DNA of 64,000 bases, taken from Candidatus Gastranaerophilales bacterium. GTDB lineage: Bacteria; Cyanobacteriota; Vampirovibrionia; Gastranaerophilales; Gastranaerophilaceae. Both the position numbers and the translations under genes were made by a program. Location: contig CALUQO010000001.1 in NCBI GenBank assembly GCA_944322935.1, forward strand, positions 43,934 to 107,933, in the 5' to 3' direction. Shown one piece after another: positions 36,360 to 40,441 of the stretch; the stretch's first letter is position 1, and every line of letters starts with the position of its first letter. The notes under the pieces are model-generated. The model did no database searches and was not told where the DNA came from. It saw only the letters and a program-made list of their open reading frames with translations.

Positions 36360-38330
36360 TTAACGTAATTCTTTTAGTTTTTCTTCATAGGTTGTTTTAT
36401 TATAATTTATCCTTGAGGCAATTATAGGATGCCGGTATTCTGTTTTGTTAATTGAACGCGCATCCACAATCGGAGACGGTGGCATAATAAACCATTTGTA
36501 TAAAGCAGTGGACATCCTTCTGAAAAATTTGTTTAACCATTCAAGTTTTTTGTCTATGCTAAGTTCCTCACCATGTTCTTTAAGGTGTTTTTCGTATAAA
36601 AATTCTGCCCGCATCATGTCTGTTATTGTTTGCTGCAAGTTTTCCACGCGCCATATTACCTCGTCTAAAAATTCATATGGCATAAGCGCCTCTTCCGCAA
36701 GCAATGGTTTGCCTGTTTTAGGGTTTATTGCAAGTTCGGCTCCCGGACGTTTTGCAATAATGGTCTCAGGTATGGCATTTTTTTGTTCTCTGTTTTTGTT
36801 GAGCCATTTTGCAAGTGCAAAAAGTTTTGTTTTGGAAACATCTGCCAAAGGAGCAAATCCGCCAGACATATCCCCGTTTATGGTCGCATAACCCATATAA
36901 AGCTCTGATTTATCCGACGTTGCTATCGGCAAACAGGATTGAAACTCATTAGCAATCCCCCACAGTATCAGGGCTCTTGAGCGCGCCTGTATATTGTCAT
37001 TGGTAAAACACTCACTGTAGCGGCAGTTCCATTTACTTTCCACAGCGCTAAAAGTTTCATCAAACTTTGCACGCGTTGAGTCATACATATCTTTTATCGA
37101 AACTTCCGCAAAGTTTATACCGAGGTTTTGCGCAAGTTCGCGCGCATCGCTTTTGCTTTCAGCGCTTGTTATTTTAGACGGCATACTTATACCGAAAACG
37201 TTTTCAGCTCCTATTGCATCTGCCAGTAATACGGCGCTGACTGTAGAATCCAACCCGCCCGACAGTCCCAGCACCGCTCTTTTGAAACCTGTCTTTTTAA
37301 AATAGTCACGAATTGTTTGTACTATAGTAAGATATGTACGCTCTAAGTCCGGTTCATGATCCAGCGTAAAAGCTTTTTGGGAATTGAGCGTTTTTTCAAG
37401 CCCGTCCGGCAGAGGGTATATTTTCCCTCCTTCTGACGGTGATACGATAAAAAACTGCTCCTGATATGATTTTGCCATAGCGCACAGCCTGCCGTTTTGG
37501 TCATAAACTCTTGAAGCACCTTCAAAAGATAACCCCTCGTTTGAGCCGACCTGATTTACATATATAATAGGGGTTGCGTGTTTTTTTGCAGCAAAAGCAA
37601 GCATATTGTGCTTTAATTGTTCTTTTTTGGCTCTTGTAATTGAAGAAGAACAGTTAACAATATAGTCGGGGTGCTGTTCTTTGATAACAGTTTCCACAGG
37701 GTCAACGCCGTATAAATTTTTGTCAAAAAAGTCAAAATCATTCCAACCGTCTTCACAAACTATTATGCCCGCTTTGTTTTGCCCTATTGTTGTAATCCTT
37801 TGCTCGCTATTAACAGGTGCCGGTTCAAAATGTCTGTAGTCATTAAATTCCGCATAATTTGGCAGCAGAGTTTTTCTTATAATACGTTCTATTTTTCCTT
37901 CTGACAAAACAGCAATTGAATTAAAATATTTTTTGCCCCCTTTTGTTTTGTTAAATTCCGCAAAACCCATTATAACTTTTGTTTTACCGGTTGTTTTTGC
38001 GGCGAGCGCTTTTAACCATTCAATGTTTTCTTCTACTATAATCGGAAACCTGTCAATAAAATCTCCGATAGGGTATCCTATTAAATACATTTCAGGAAAC
38101 ACAACGGCATCGAGATTCAGTCTTTGTGCCCATTTTATCCACTTAAATGCTTTTATTGCATTGCTTTTTACATCACCCGAGGTCGGATTTATCTGAGCCA
38201 ATGCTATTGCATCTTTTGGAATATATTTTTGTATTTGTATGGCAAGACTCTGTTTTTCGTTTTCTGTTAAATTATCTTCAAGCAAGTCTTTATCAAGTGT
38301 ATCGGTTAGTGCATAAATGTTTTCATCCAT
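36360..38330 (-). CDS. nadE: glutamine-dependent NAD+ synthetase (CN-hydrolase + NAD synthase domains)
   Basis: N-terminal nitrilase-type domain (FPEMYLIGYP, IVCED) and a C-terminal PP-loop domain (LGLSGGLDSTV, ATSDKSELYMGYATINGD). 656 aa. Confidence 0.95.
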   Translation of the reverse strand: MDENIYALTDTLDKDLLEDNLTENEKQSLAIQIQKYIPKDAIALAQINPTSGDVKSNAIKAFKWIKWAQRLNLDAVVFPEMYLIGYPIGDFIDRFPIIVEENIEWLKALAAKTTGKTKVIMGFAEFNKTKGGKKYFNSIAVLSEGKIERIIRKTLLPNYAEFNDYRHFEPAPVNSEQRITTIGQNKAGIIVCEDGWNDFDFFDKNLYGVDPVETVIKEQHPDYIVNCSSSITRAKKEQLKHNMLAFAAKKHATPIIYVNQVGSNEGLSFEGASRVYDQNGRLCAMAKSYQEQFFIVSPSEGGKIYPLPDGLEKTLNSQKAFTLDHEPDLERTYLTIVQTIRDYFKKTGFKRAVLGLSGGLDSTVSAVLLADAIGAENVFGISMPSKITSAESKSDARELAQNLGINFAEVSIKDMYDSTRAKFDETFSAVESKWNCRYSECFTNDNIQARSRALILWGIANEFQSCLPIATSDKSELYMGYATINGDMSGGFAPLADVSKTKLFALAKWLNKNREQKNAIPETIIAKRPGAELAINPKTGKPLLAEEALMPYEFLDEVIWRVENLQQTITDMMRAEFLYEKHLKEHGEELSIDKKLEWLNKFFRRMSTALYKWFIMPPSPIVDARSINKTEYRHPIIASRINYNKTTYEEKLKELR

Positions 38331-38491
38331 AATAAAACTTTCTTAAATGTTAAATACTCCCTCGTCTATCTAATTTTAACAAAAAAATAACCGATAGTTC
38401 CGTTTTGACATGTTACGTACTTTTTATACACCCACCCCAAAAAACTGAATCAGCAGCACTTTTTTAAGATAAAAGCATTATTATTTGTAAC

Positions 38492-38518
38492 ATCATAGCC
38501 GACTTTTGTAAGGACTCC
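38492..38518. repeat. left terminal inverted repeat
   Basis: See the island feature (38492..39277). It is followed by the hairpin CGTAAAGGTAGAC-TAAA-GTCTACCCTACG. Confidence 0.7.
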
Positions 38519-38840
38519 ACAAGCATGATTAAGCGTAAAGGTAGACTAAAGTCTACCCTACGATACTGTATTCCATCAGGGCTTTGCCCCAGTTCACTAT
38601 TAAAAGAACAAGCGTATTTGCAATATCATAATGAAGTCGTGAAGCCATTTTGCACGTTTCGCCACAGCTCAACGGCAAAAGAAGGCAACCCCCTACGGCT
38701 CACAAAGTGAGCCGTTATTGTGTATTGCCGCACGCGGAAATGGAAATAAATAACAACCTTTACCGCGCAAGCGGTCTGCGGCTCTGCCGCTGGAACTGAT
38801 TACAGACTCTTGGTATTTACGCACAAAATTTTCGTTAAGC

Positions 38841-38935
38841 AAGGACTCCGTTCAAAAGTTGACTAAATGTCAAGTTTTGAATGGAGGTATGCAAAGTCAG
38901 AAGCGAAGCTTCTGTGAGCAGTAAAATAATTAAAT
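38841..38935 (+). repeat. internal two-hairpin module, copy A
   Basis: AAGGACTCCGTTCAAAAGTTGAC-TAAAT-GTCAAGTTTTGAATGGAGG...GTCAGAAGC-GAA-GCTTCTG..GCAGTAAAATAATTAAA. Confidence 0.65.
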
Positions 38936-39048
38936 TTTGAAGATAAATACTTTAGAGTCTGTTTTGATTGCGTATTTTTCTTTCTTTGCTTGAGTCGTAG
39001 GCAAGCCGAAGGCGAGCCTTACGAATCAGGATGCCCTTGGGTATGGTT

Positions 39049-39150
39049 CGTTTTTAATTTTTATACTGCACGCAGATACTTCGTATCTGACTTAGCCTGC
39101 CTCTATTCAAAATGATACTTAATCATTTTGAACAGAGTTCTTGCAAAAAA
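39049..39150 (-). repeat. internal two-hairpin module, copy B (inverted)
   Basis: The reverse complement reads AAGAACTCTGTTCAAAATGAT-TAAGT-ATCATTTTGAATAGAGG...GTCAGATAC-GAA-GTATCTG..GCAGTATAAAAATTAAA. It is colinear with copy A, and the stem differences between the copies are compensatory. Confidence 0.65.
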
Positions 39151-39250
39151 GAAAGAAAATGAACATAAGAAAATAAAACGTATTTTACGCAACAAACAAA
39201 AGCAGATTCATCCATTGTTCATCGTAAAGGTAGACTATAATCGTGCTCGC

Positions 39251-39277
39251 GGAGTCCTGACAAAGGTCGGCAATGAT
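39251..39277. repeat. right terminal inverted repeat
   Basis: Its reverse complement matches 38492..38518 at 24/27 positions. Confidence 0.7.
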
Positions 39278-39282
39278 ATTTT

Positions 39283-39423
39283 TTAAAGATTACATTTTTG
39301 AGCCATTTTATCCGCTTTATCAATTTTGTAAAGAATAATATCGATTTGTTCTTTTAGCCCTTCGAGCAGCGCTCTTAATTCAAATTTAAAACTGTAAGCA
39401 CCGGGCCAGAAATATTTGTCCAT
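39283..39423 (-). CDS. small hypothetical protein (46 aa)
   Basis: ATG at 39423 lies 9 nt after AAGGAG. Translation is MDKYFWPGAYSFKFELRALLEGLKEQIDIILYKIDKADKMAQKCNL. The longer track ORF (to 39474) has no RBS. Confidence 0.4.
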   Translation of the reverse strand: MDKYFWPGAYSFKFELRALLEGLKEQIDIILYKIDKADKMAQKCNL

Positions 39424-39619: not shown

Positions 39620-40441
39620 ATGTGGGATTATACAGATAAAGTAATGGATCACTATAAAAACCCGAGAAATGTCGGAGAAATAGAAAACCCTTCAGCCATT
39701 GGCGAAGCAGGCTCACTTGTCTGCGGCGATGCGCTGAAATTATATTTAAAAGTAGATGACAAAGGTGTTATTACAGACGCAAAGTTCCAGACCTTCGGCT
39801 GCGGTTCTGCCGTTGCATCGTCAAGCGTTTTAACAGAAATGATTAAGGGTATGACGATTGATGAGGCTTCTAAAATAACAAACCAGCAGATAGCCGATGC
39901 ACTGGGCGGTCTGCCGCCTCAAAAGATGCACTGTTCGGTTATGGGGCATGAGGCGCTTGAATCCGCTATTGCAAACTACAAGGGTGAGGATGCGGCAATG
40001 CACTGTGATGAAAAAATCATCTGCAAATGCTATCACGTAACGGAAAATGTTATACGTGAAGCAATCGAACAGAACAACCTCACAGACCTTGAAGATGTAA
40101 TGAATTACACAAAAGCCGGCGGTGCCTGCGGGCAATGCCATGTGGCCGTGCAAAAAATCATTGACGAATTTAAAAACAAAAAAGAAAAAGTCGACATAAA
40201 AAATATGTCCGTCACACAGCTTGTTTTAAAAATCAACAACGTTATAGAAAAATATATCTCAAACGAACTGAGAAAAGACGGCGGAGATATTGAACTTATT
40301 GACGTAAAAGATAACAAGGTCTATGTTTCTCTCAAAGGAATGTGCAAATCCTGCAAGTTTTCTTCAAACACCTTAAAAAACTTTGTGGAAGCTTCGCTAA
40401 AAGAACACATTTCACCTGATATTGAAGTTGTGGAGGTTTAA
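39620..40441 (+). CDS. nifU: NifU-type Fe-S cluster scaffold (IscU-like N domain, BFD-like [2Fe-2S] middle, NifU C domain)
   Basis: YKNPRNVG, GDALKLYL, FQTFGCGSAVASSS, HCSVMG; the central CKCYHV...CGQC; C-terminal DGGDIELIDV and CKSC. Confidence 0.93.
   Translation: MWDYTDKVMDHYKNPRNVGEIENPSAIGEAGSLVCGDALKLYLKVDDKGVITDAKFQTFGCGSAVASSSVLTEMIKGMTIDEASKITNQQIADALGGLPPQKMHCSVMGHEALESAIANYKGEDAAMHCDEKIICKCYHVTENVIREAIEQNNLTDLEDVMNYTKAGGACGQCHVAVQKIIDEFKNKKEKVDIKNMSVTQLVLKINNVIEKYISNELRKDGGDIELIDVKDNKVYVSLKGMCKSCKFSSNTLKNFVEASLKEHISPDIEVVEV

What the first reader, a model, noticed from the sequence alone, without database searches (positions are those of the whole stretch)
38492..39277. About 790-bp noncoding island bounded by long imperfect inverted repeats
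The interval between nadE and nifU is about 1.29 kb, against a typical spacer of under 150 nt. Within it, 38492-38518 and the reverse complement of 39251-39277 match at 24/27 positions, and similarity continues about 60 nt inward, with an 18-nt hairpin insertion on the left side. The interior has no credible ORF and has elevated GC. It is packed with perfect hairpins: ACGGCTCAC-AAA-GTGAGCCGT at 38695-38715, ACCGC-GCAA-GCGGT (a GNRA loop) at 38762-38775, CAGAAGC-GAA-GCTTCTG, and CAGATAC-TTC-GTATCTG. The architecture fits a non-autonomous mobile element (MITE-like) or a large structured RNA locus. I cannot match it to RNase P, tmRNA, SRP, 6S or group II intron signatures.
Basis: seen in the sequence. 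Interest (0 to 1): 0.62.

Follow-up and report, generated by a model that had tools for sequence, protein, structure and literature searches.

The report
Mosaic island of hairpin repeat modules
The 790-base "island" is neither one jumping element nor one large RNA: it is a patchwork of at least eight short, hairpin-forming repeats that litter the gene spacers of this chicken-gut relative of cyanobacteria, an ordinary kind of selfish DNA whose families appear undescribed.

Summary
The inverted repeat, the hairpins and the lack of a credible ORF are all real and beyond chance. The organism is a Candidatus Gastranaerophilales (gut Melainabacteria) MAG from chicken gut. The repeated DNA spans 38435-39280. 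It is a BIME-like mosaic of independent modules, each present 5-30 times in this genome and in most species of the genus.

- **The "terminal inverted repeats"** are two inverted copies of a ~70-nt unit (B+C) that also occurs alone elsewhere. They are not transposon ends, and there is no target-site duplication.
- **R1** is a ~105-nt three-helix element (38590-38694). It is a discrete insertion into a host module that has at least 10 empty paralogues. It shows strong compensatory change and occurs in 24 of 28 genus genomes at 2-115 copies.
- **THE** is a ~95-nt two-hairpin element (38838-38934 on +, 39048-39147 on -). Its linkers are conserved and its stems are hypervariable. It varies from 0 to 3 copies at an orthologous spacer in sister species.

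Nothing matches Rfam, Pfam or phage records. A RAYT transposase exists in the genome, but its own flanking REPs belong to a different family and it is intact in only 8 of 28 genomes, so the mobilising enzyme is unresolved. I found no usable RNA evidence.

Verdict: a new variant of a known kind, of modest interest.

The parts
38435..38498 (.). Module A: an AT-rich leader that co-occurs with module B at 7 other loci at 75-79% identity.
   Evidence: the repeat coverage begins at 38435, and the hits span 38435-38517/38533.
38499..38567 (+). It holds the THE-type 5' leader CCGACYTTTGTAAGGACTCC, the left arm of hairpin 1, and the small hairpin C (GGTAGAC-TAAA-GTCTACC, 38539-38556).
   Evidence: B occurs alone at C8 (two sites), C20, C40, C70 and C65. 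B and C occur together at C12:60517-60581.
38565..38589 (+). 5' half of host module M1 (..TTCCATCAGGGCTnnGCCCC).
   Evidence: at least 10 uninterrupted M1 paralogues read GCCCCGAACCCCCTACGG.
38590..38694 (+). R1: a ~105-nt three-helix structured repeat running from GTTCACTATT to GAAGGCAA, inserted into M1.
   Evidence: The covariance-model match is at C1:82523-82627. In 37 distinct sequences, 99.5% of cells pair and 9 of 20 pairs show compensatory change. Paralogues skip exactly 38591-38686.
38687..38718 (+). 3' half of M1, with hairpin E (ACGGCTCAC-AAA-GTGAGCCGT, 38695-38715).
   Evidence: Paralogues show the loop in both orientations and the compensatory stem variant GGCTTAC/GTAAGCC.
38719..38837 (+). 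Modules F and G, with the hairpins ACCGC-GCAA-GCGGT (38762-38775) and GCGGC-TCT-GCCGC.
   Evidence: copies on C12, C43, C16, C8, C14, C5, C20, C4 and C65. The composite D-E-F-G recurs on C26, C27 and C73.
38838..38934 (+). THE, the two-hairpin element, in H orientation: GCAAGGACTCC, hairpin 1, GGAGGYAKGCWAAGY, hairpin 2, YGWGCMGTAWAA.
   Evidence: (I1). In C26 this stretch is replaced by 12 nt.
38934..39012 (.). A 79-nt segment lying in the spacer of the THE doublet. It is absent from the otherwise equivalent doublets on C7, C10 and C27.
   Evidence: those three subjects skip 38934-39012 with only 2 nt in its place.
39013..39047 (.). The basic spacer of the THE inverted doublet.
39048..39147 (-). 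The second THE copy (module J), inverted relative to 38838-38934. This is the most abundant module, with about 25-32 copies.
   Evidence: All 8 inverted THE doublets in the genome are arranged '+ then -'.
39143..39221 (.). Module K: an AT-rich module. Its arm AAAGAAAGAAAA (39148-39159) pairs with 38976-38987.
   Evidence: (I18), with 13 or more copies. In C26 a 24-nt filler replaces 38988-39142.
39222..39280 (-). The right arm of the inverted repeat: an inverted partial copy of unit B+C that lacks 18 nt (one arm plus the loop of hairpin C).
   Evidence: (I2, D1, I22).

Best explanation
The island is a composite cluster of small, non-coding, hairpin-forming interspersed repeats. It is analogous to the bacterial interspersed mosaic elements (BIMEs, or REP clusters) of enterobacteria. 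It lies downstream of a small conserved ORF and upstream of nadE.

Shown here:
- It consists of at least eight separable modules: A, B+C, M1 with hairpin E, R1, F/G, two inverted THE copies, and K. Each recurs independently in this genome and in most species of the genus, almost only between genes.
- The island was built by nesting and juxtaposition. R1 sits inside M1, a 79-nt piece sits inside a THE doublet, and the outer 'inverted repeat' is an inverted doublet of unit B+C.
- Larger composites have themselves been duplicated.
- R1 and THE keep defined secondary structures through compensatory changes.
- THE varies from 0 to 3 copies at an orthologous spacer in sister species.

Inferred:
- The modules are selfish DNA that spreads as folded single strands. 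I put a hairpin-recognising enzyme acting in trans, a RAYT-type HUH tyrosine transposase or one not yet identified, at about 40%.
- Homologous or illegitimate recombination between copies and tandem duplication then shuffle the modules into mosaics and make such islands breakpoints of synteny and of assembly.
- No host function is required, although read-through transcripts would carry the hairpins.
For: Copy number and spread:
- 113 matches of island pieces in the own genome, in both orientations and in varying combinations.
- Transitive closure of the repeats gives about 183 clusters and about 31 kb (1.3% of the genome). 37 of 152 contig ends lie in them. 99.6% of these bases lie outside long ORFs.
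- 24 of the 25 genus genomes searched (the own genome included) hold island modules, and there are few matches outside the genus.

R1:
- It occurs in 24 of 28 genus genomes at 2-115 copies, and patchily in 6 of 33 genera of the order sample.
- Covariation: 99.5% of cells pair, 9 of 20 pairs show compensatory change, and 0 of 500 shuffles reach the observed score.
- Filled and empty paralogues exist. At least 10 M1 copies lack exactly 38591-38686.

THE:
- Linkers are conserved and stems are hypervariable. For hairpin 2 plus the outer helix, 99.3% of cells pair and 5 of 10 pairs show compensatory change.
- The H-orientation strand is more stable in 15 of 16 copies, with 26 G-U pairs against 7.
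- All 8 inverted doublets share the same polarity.
- The orthologous ssb-rpsR spacer holds 0 copies (G019, G008), 1 (G018), 2 (G009) and 3 in tandem (G002).

The inverted-repeat arms are a separate module:
- B occurs alone at 6 or more loci, A+B occur together at 7, and B+C together at C12.

The island marks a synteny breakpoint:
- Contig L031, with an identical NifU, has a different neighbour and different repeats beyond the small ORF.
- nadE has a different upstream neighbour in most species, and only 6 of 27 carry repeats there.

Enzyme:
- A RAYT is present (NF047646, 131 bits), flanked by inverted GTAG REPs. The whole cassette replaces the 9-nt loop of a module-type hairpin, so hairpin loops are used as insertion sites.
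Against: - No mobilising enzyme is tied to the island modules. The RAYT's own flanking REP (GTAGGTTGGGG..CCCCAAC, about 14 copies) is a different sequence family.
- The RAYT is intact in only 8 of 28 genus genomes, with remnants in 6 more. Six genomes with 10 or more R1 copies have no full Y1_Tnp.
- R1 lies near only 1 of 12 RAYT loci.
- The link between R1 load and RAYT presence is weak: median 14 against 4, p = 0.046, not corrected for phylogeny.
- No TnpB is present.
- No clean target-site rule or duplication could be derived. All 8 filled M1::R1 copies probably descend from one insertion event.
- Strong conservation of unpaired nucleotides, and a recurrent A-C mismatch on one strand (a G-U pair on the other) in THE, would also fit an RNA-level function.
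- The filled/empty comparisons are between paralogues or between species about 80% identical in NadE, not between strains.
Confidence: 0.75

Rival explanations
1. The island is a single non-autonomous transposon (MITE) bounded by about 43-60-nt terminal inverted repeats.
For: - A significant inverted repeat sits at both ends.
- The DNA is non-coding and multi-copy.
Against: - There is no target-site duplication. The flanks read ..TTATTTGTAAC and ATTTTTTAAAG...
- The arms occur alone elsewhere, and the left arm is internal to the larger repeat A+B.
- No other locus has the same two ends around the same interior. The best other copy, on C73, shares only 38627-39183 and then diverges.
- The interior is itself made of independent repeats.
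Confidence: 0.04
2. The modules, especially R1 and THE, are functional RNAs such as cis-acting or small regulatory RNAs, RNA-protein scaffolds or guides. On this reading the island is a cluster of such RNA genes, and repetition is secondary.
For: - Strong covariation, with highly conserved unpaired nucleotides in R1.
- THE folds better on one strand, with recurrent G-U pairs across unrelated stem sequences.
- The 52-nt R1 core is 98% identical across species.
- In sister species THE lies sense-oriented inside the ssb-rpsR operon spacer.
- A chicken-gut metatranscriptome holds one low-depth contig of a paralogous island.
Against: - No Rfam match.
- Copy number per genome ranges from 0 to 115 and the taxonomic distribution is patchy. 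That pattern suits mobile DNA, not a housekeeping RNA.
- There is no orientation bias relative to neighbouring genes: THE is 10 sense to 5 antisense, and R1 is 5 to 7.
- The islands occur in divergent, tandem and convergent spacers alike.
- The island as a whole folds equally well on both strands.
- There is no sound transcription evidence. The runs labelled 'RNA?' contain 117-kb contigs, so they are probably DNA. The real metatranscriptome has a depth of only 2-4, and DNA carry-over cannot be excluded.
Confidence: 0.13
3. The modules are cassettes of a site-specific recombination system (att-like or integron-like serial integration at short conserved junctions), not transposons.
For: - Short junction motifs recur between modules: CCGACC, and GGCAA|ATCCGC.
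- A tandem array on C8:55565-55836 has units each ending in AAAATCCGC.
- The THE tandem units in G002, G009 and G018 each carry a copy of the flanking ~17-33-nt sequence ..TTAAGTYAGTCCGGGC, which is present once in the empty site.
Against: - I identified no dedicated recombinase next to the islands. Contigs flanked by repeats carry ordinary genes.
- The cassettes carry no ORFs.
- Tandem duplication by slippage or unequal crossing-over explains the arrays equally well.
Confidence: 0.06
4. The island is a decayed protein-coding gene or a remnant of a prophage or insertion sequence.
For: The spacer is unusually long, and the GC content of its left half is close to that of coding DNA.
Against: - No ORF exceeds 61 aa and there is no Pfam hit above cut-off.
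- No phage or viral-contig match.
- Length variation among copies is not in multiples of three.
- The sequence is fully accounted for by repeat modules.
Confidence: 0.02

Closest known systems
BIMEs (REP clusters), REPINs and their RAYT transposases. Sources: E. coli and Pseudomonas literature, cited from my own knowledge; the GTAG/CGTC-tagged REP survey of Di Nocera et al. 2013 (PMC3733652).
   Same: - Short extragenic palindromic units combined with other motifs into variable mosaic clusters.
- Frequent inverted doublets that can fold into larger hairpins.
- Several families per genome.
- A RAYT gene flanked by inverted GTAG REPs exists in this genome.
   Different: - The island's units are longer (70-125 nt) and contain two or three helices. 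Their linkers are conserved and their stems hypervariable, unlike 20-40-nt single palindromes.
- No consistent GTAG or CGTC tag in the canonical position.
- The RAYT's flanking REP is a different family.
- The RAYT is intact in only 8 of 28 genomes that share the modules.
Bacterial MITE-like elements: Correia/NEMIS of Neisseria, BOX and RUP of Streptococcus pneumoniae, ERIC/IRU of enterobacteria, Nezha of cyanobacteria (from my own knowledge).
   Same: - Small, non-autonomous, intergenic, structured and multi-copy.
- Insertion-polymorphic between relatives.
- BOX elements are likewise modular (boxA, boxB, boxC).
   Different: - Individual modules here have no terminal inverted repeats and no detectable target-site duplication.
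- The island-level inverted repeat is a doublet of a module, not a pair of transposon ends.
- No IS-type transposase partner was found.
IS200/IS605-derived palindrome-associated elements (PATEs), from my own knowledge.
   Same: - Hairpin-defined units without terminal inverted repeats or target-site duplications.
- Strand-asymmetric folding, as seen for THE.
- Dependence on a Y1 HUH enzyme is plausible.
   Different: - The only Y1 enzyme is a RAYT.
- No TnpB.
- No defined left-end and right-end pair or target tetranucleotide could be established.
   Same: A long, hairpin-dense, GC-enriched stretch in an AT-rich spacer.
   Different: - No Rfam match at gathering or permissive thresholds.
- Multi-copy and modular.
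- Both strands fold equally well.

Membership tests
MITE (single non-autonomous DNA transposon) | Terminal inverted repeats that define the ends of the mobile unit | tested here: not met
   An inverted repeat is present. However, its arms are copies of an independent unit that occurs alone at 6 or more loci, and the left arm is embedded in the larger repeat A+B at 7 loci.
MITE (single non-autonomous DNA transposon) | Target-site duplication flanking the element | tested here: not met
   The flanks of 38489-39280 share no direct repeat. None is seen around R1 or THE copies either.
MITE (single non-autonomous DNA transposon) | Multiple full-length copies of the same unit | tested here: not met
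   There is only a 557-bp, 96% identical copy of the interior, cut by the end of contig C73. All other matches are partial modules.
REP / BIME | Extragenic, palindromic, multi-copy units arranged in mosaic clusters with alternating orientation | tested here: met
   99.6% of the repeat bases lie outside long ORFs, and 8 inverted THE doublets are present.
REP / BIME | A 20-40-nt palindrome carrying an unpaired GTAG or CGTC tag at one end (PMC3733652) | tested here: inconclusive
   Hairpin C has GTAG inside its stem. Hairpin E has CTAC on its 5' side, which is the opposite geometry. Module I contains GTAGGCAAGCC. THE and R1 have no such tag. The RAYT-flanking REP does have the canonical 5' GTAG.
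REP / RAYT system (REPIN) | A cognate RAYT flanked by the same repeat family and co-occurring with it | tested here: not met
   The RAYT is flanked by a different REP family. It is intact in 8 of 28 genomes, against R1 in 24 of 28. R1 lies near 1 of 12 RAYT loci. The association with copy number is weak (p = 0.046).
IS200/IS605 PATE | An IS200/IS605 TnpA (and often TnpB) in the genome, with matching left-end and right-end hairpins | tested here: not met
   The only Y1_Tnp hit is the RAYT. PF07282 is absent.
Any Rfam RNA family | A covariance-model score at or above the gathering threshold | tested here: not met
   There are no hits in the whole window at gathering thresholds. In E-value mode only sub-threshold chance hits appear.

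The most novel reading that the evidence does not exclude
R1 and THE may not be mere selfish DNA. They could be a new class of structured element that acts as RNA or as folded single-stranded DNA. Features pointing that way are the conserved loops and linkers, a recurrent G-U pair on one strand, and the fixed polarity of the doublets. Two possibilities follow. One is a hairpin-loop-targeting mobile element that uses an enzyme other than a RAYT. The other is a modular non-coding RNA family with a host or anti-phage role. Either would make Gastranaerophilales a tractable system for a new mobility or RNA mechanism.
Probability: 0.15. Interest if true: 0.7.

Novelty: new variant of a known kind. 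Interest (0 to 1): 0.36.

Why it matters
- **Annotation:** a long 'orphan' spacer that looked like an RNA gene or a MITE is explained as a repeat mosaic. The same modules account for about 1.3% of the genome and about a quarter of its contig ends, so they limit MAG assembly and mark synteny breakpoints in gut Melainabacteria.
- **Biology:** the module families R1, THE and M1 have well-supported folds, matched no Rfam family, and no paper turned up in my two literature searches on Melainabacteria or Gastranaerophilales repeats. They spread in a lineage where the only HUH transposase candidate is often lost, which raises the question of what moves them.
- **Limits:** REP-, BIME- and MITE-like mosaics are a familiar feature of bacterial genomes, and other notes of this scan describe similar mosaic hairpin repeats in related genomes. 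The surprise is therefore limited.

Tried and rejected
- **Rfam:** gathering-threshold and permissive scans gave nothing credible.
- **TnpB / omega-RNA idea for R1:** no PF07282 hit in the genome.
- **RAYT as the cognate mobiliser:** different flanking REPs, patchy presence and no proximity, so this stays unresolved and unsupported.
- **Phage origin:** no match in the phage records or in the viral contigs.
- **Wider sampling:** a JGI metagenome pattern scan for R1 found a single contig.
- **A transposase on small repeat-flanked contigs or next to R1 copies:** only ordinary genes were found.
- **Orientation bias relative to genes:** none.
- **RNA evidence:**
  - The runs labelled 'METAGENOMIC RNA-Seq' contain 83-118-kb contigs, so I treated them as DNA.
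  - Two true metatranscriptomes gave only scraps at a depth of 2-4.
- **Empty site at the orthologous nadE-nifU spacer:** the adjacency is not conserved even in the closest available contigs, so no direct empty site for the whole island exists.
- **Decayed gene:** no Pfam signal in any island ORF.
- **A correction on the way:** I first misread the orientation of the genome-search loci and redid the analysis.
Full report
**Context**

The window comes from a 2.3-Mb, 76-contig MAG. Its NifU is 89-100% identical to those of genome records most of which are titled Candidatus Gastranaerophilales, and its DNA is found in chicken-gut metagenomes. The finding lies between nadE (36360-38330, minus strand) and nifU (39620-40441, plus strand). 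The gap is not entirely non-coding. A 46-aa ORF at 39283-39423 (minus strand, MDKYFWPGAYSFKFEL...) is conserved in contigs L031 and L032 with many synonymous differences. The repeat island ends three bases from its stop codon.

**Observation check**

- The repeat finder recovers the terminal inverted repeat at 38489-38531 / 39238-39280, 43 nt at 84%. It also finds a second, internal inverted repeat at 38875-38934 / 39053-39112, 60 nt at 80%.
- The outer repeat exceeds all of 100 dinucleotide shuffles, scoring 36/43 against a maximum of 32.
- Both strands of 38489-39280 fold with z-scores of -11.0 and -13.6.
- GC is 0.396, against 0.24-0.28 in the unique parts of the spacer and 0.371 genome-wide.
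- No ORF exceeds 61 aa and none has a Pfam match above cut-off.
- Rfam gives nothing at gathering thresholds in the whole window, and only chance-level hits in permissive mode.

**It is repeated, but piecewise**

A search of the organism's own genome with the island gives 113 matches. Apart from one 557-bp, 96% identical copy on contig C73 (island 38627-39183, cut by the contig end), the matches are pieces of 30-310 nt. They occur in both orientations and in different orders, clustered in about 20 other intergenic islands. Coverage shows that repeated DNA runs from 38435 to 39280. Everything else in the spacer is unique.

Iterative closure of the repeat network gives about 183 clusters and about 31 kb. 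37 of the 152 contig ends lie in the network, and only 0.4% of it lies inside ORFs of 150 aa or more, against 80% of the genome.

The start and end points of the matches define these modules:

| Module | Window coordinates |
|---|---|
| A | 38435-38498 |
| B | 38499-38533 |
| C | 38533-38567 |
| D (M1 plus R1 plus hairpin E) | 38565-38718 |
| F/G | to 38837 |
| H | 38838-38934 |
| I | 38932-39053 |
| J | 39048-39147 |
| K | 39143-39221 |
| Inverted copy of B | 39239-39270 |

**The 'terminal inverted repeats'**

- Module B occurs alone at C8 (two sites), C20, C40, C70 and C65. There it is the 5' leader plus the first hairpin arm of a two-hairpin element.
- A+B occur together at 7 loci.
- B+C occur together at C12:60517-60581.
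- The flanks show no target-site duplication.

The inverted repeat is therefore an inverted doublet of a repeat unit, not the two ends of one transposon.

**R1**

Inside module D, a stretch of about 105 nt (38590-38694, GTTCACTATT ... GAAGGCAA) is conserved across at least four diverged subfamilies in this genome. Its three helices are maintained by compensatory changes.

- In the first alignment, RNAalifold finds 15 pairs, 4 of them with double substitutions.
- In 37 distinct copies from the genus, 99.5% of cells pair, 9 of 20 pairs show double changes, and no shuffle or slid register comes close. That alignment was fitted to the model, which biases the count towards the structure.
- A covariance model finds R1 in 24 of 28 genus genomes at 2-115 copies. 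In a sample of 81 genomes of the order it appears in only 6 of 33 genera, including a genome with 26 copies of an 81-nt variant.
- R1 is a discrete insertion. At least 10 paralogues of the host module M1 read ...GGGCTnnGCCCCGAACCCCCTACGGCTCAC... with a single base where the island has 38591-38686.
- The eight filled M1::R1 copies are 92-98% identical. They probably stem from one insertion followed by spread of the composite.

**THE**

Modules H and J, and the loci where B occurs alone, belong to one family. In H orientation the element reads: leader CCGACCTTTGTAAGGACTCC, hairpin 1, GGAGGCAGGCTAAG, hairpin 2, CGTGCCGTATAA.AATTAA.

- The linkers and loops are conserved, while the stems differ completely between subfamilies yet stay complementary.
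- For hairpin 2 plus a 3-bp outer helix, 99.3% of cells pair and 5 of 10 pairs show double changes.
- The H-orientation strand is more stable in 15 of 16 copies, by 5.8 kcal/mol on average, and carries 26 G-U pairs against 7. An A-C mismatch on the J strand recurs at the base of hairpin 1 in unrelated stem sequences. The fold is therefore strand-specific, as expected for RNA or for single-stranded DNA.
- All eight inverted THE doublets in the genome are arranged '+ then -'. The island's H/J pair is one of them.
- On C7, C10 and C27 the doublet spacer is 79 nt shorter. They skip 38934-39012 with 2 nt in its place.
- On C26 the H core and 38988-39142 are replaced by 12-nt and 24-nt fillers.

**Variation between species**

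nadE's upstream neighbour differs among the 27 species that have the gene, and only 6 carry repeats there. In G016 the modules K, J and R1 are present in a different order.

Where ssb-rpsR precedes nadE, the ssb-rpsR spacer holds a variable number of THE copies:

| Genome | THE copies in the ssb-rpsR spacer |
|---|---|
| G019, G008 | 0 |
| G018 | 1 |
| G009 | 2 |
| G002 | 3, in tandem, 122-nt period |

Each unit carries a copy of a flanking sequence (..TTAAGTYAGTCCGGGC) that occurs once in the empty site. This shows gain, loss or amplification at an orthologous site. It does not separate transposition from site-specific integration or unequal crossing-over.

Contig L031, which has a 100% identical NifU and the same small ORF, has a different upstream neighbour of nifU (a 180-aa ORF where the window has nadE) and different repeats beyond the ORF. 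The island therefore coincides with a rearrangement breakpoint.

**Which enzyme moves the modules?**

- The genome has one Y1 HUH protein, at C7:23625-24155. NCBIfam classifies it as a REP-associated tyrosine transposase, at 131 bits against a cut-off of 80.
- It is flanked by inverted GTAG-tagged REPs (TTTGTAGGTTGGGG-TTTCTA-CCCCAAC, about 14 copies). This matches the canonical arrangement described in PMC3733652.
- The REP-RAYT-REP cassette replaces the 9-nt loop of a module-type hairpin whose intact twin lies 100 nt away, next to tRNA-Phe.
- However, these REPs are not the island's modules, and R1 lies near only 1 of 12 RAYT loci.
- In the genus the RAYT is intact in 8 of 28 genomes and a remnant in 6 more, whereas R1 is in 24 of 28.
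- R1 load is somewhat higher where a full RAYT exists: median 14 against 4, Mann-Whitney p = 0.046, uncorrected for phylogeny. Six genomes with 10 or more copies lack one.
- No TnpB is present, and no transposase was seen on repeat-flanked contigs.

The mobiliser is unresolved.

**RNA or DNA?**

- I found no orientation bias relative to neighbouring genes: THE is 10 sense to 5 antisense, and R1 is 5 to 7. The islands occur in divergent, tandem and convergent spacers.
- The runs labelled 'RNA?' have contigs above 80 kb and are probably DNA.
- A true chicken-gut metatranscriptome contains one 214-nt contig of the C26-type paralogue at a depth of 2.6, which proves little.
- No phage or viral-contig relatives were found.

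**Conclusion**

The island is a mosaic of small structured repeats that works like a BIME. It fails the defining tests for a MITE and for the REP/RAYT system in the strict sense. R1, THE and M1 matched no Rfam family and turned up in no paper in my two searches on Melainabacteria or Gastranaerophilales repeats. Earlier notes of this scan describe similar mosaics in related genomes. I used them as leads only.

I rate it a new variant of a known kind, of modest interest. There is a minority chance of about 15% that R1 or THE represent a new RNA or mobility mechanism.

Noticed in passing
window 39283-39423 (minus strand): A 46-aa ORF (MDKYFWPGAYSFKFELRALLEGLKEQIDIILYKIDKADKMAQK...) lies divergent from nifU. 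It is conserved in L031 (identical protein) and in L032 (about 3 amino-acid changes among many synonymous ones). It has no Pfam or NCBIfam match. It is probably a real small protein linked to nifU/nifS.
   Followed up: partly
L111 (own genome, contig C7:22266-25628); key part C7:23480-24490: A RAYT gene (177 aa, NF047646) is flanked by inverted GTAG REPs. The whole cassette replaces the 9-nt loop ACTAAATGT of a hairpin (CTCTGCCGAGAAAAACAAG..CTTGTTTTYYGAGAGG). An intact twin of that hairpin lies next door. Both hairpins sit inside duplicated 3' halves of the adjacent tRNA-Phe gene.
   Followed up: partly
own genome, contig C8:55565-55887: An R1 copy is followed by three tandem ~85-90-nt multi-hairpin units, each ending in AAAATCCGC. 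The same motif follows GGCAA at the 3' end of many R1 copies. This may be a junction or core motif for serial addition.
   Followed up: no
genus genome G024 (for example L124, L149): One species carries 115 R1 copies, against 0-32 in its relatives. It also has three RAYT loci, two of them identical pseudogenes with a TAG stop lying 5.5 kb apart.
   Followed up: no
L165, L166, L171, L172, L173 (the region upstream of nadE in G018, G009, G002, G019, G008): The ssb-rpsR intergenic spacer holds 0, 1, 2 or 3 sense-oriented THE copies depending on the species. G018 also has an 'empty shell' (GCAAGG-ATGTTATTAAAAAC-CCTTGC) that lacks the two hairpins.
   Followed up: partly
own genome, contig ends: 37 of 152 contig ends terminate in this repeat network. 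The true repeat content of the genome is therefore probably well above the 1.3% measured.
   Followed up: no
own genome, C12:33058, C19:30-90, C58:99 and 1794, C59:6852: Outside the RAYT locus, the GTAG REP is followed by a conserved ~30-nt tail (AAAAGTGTCCCAAAATAATCAAACCATCT). This suggests it is part of another, larger repeat.
   Followed up: no
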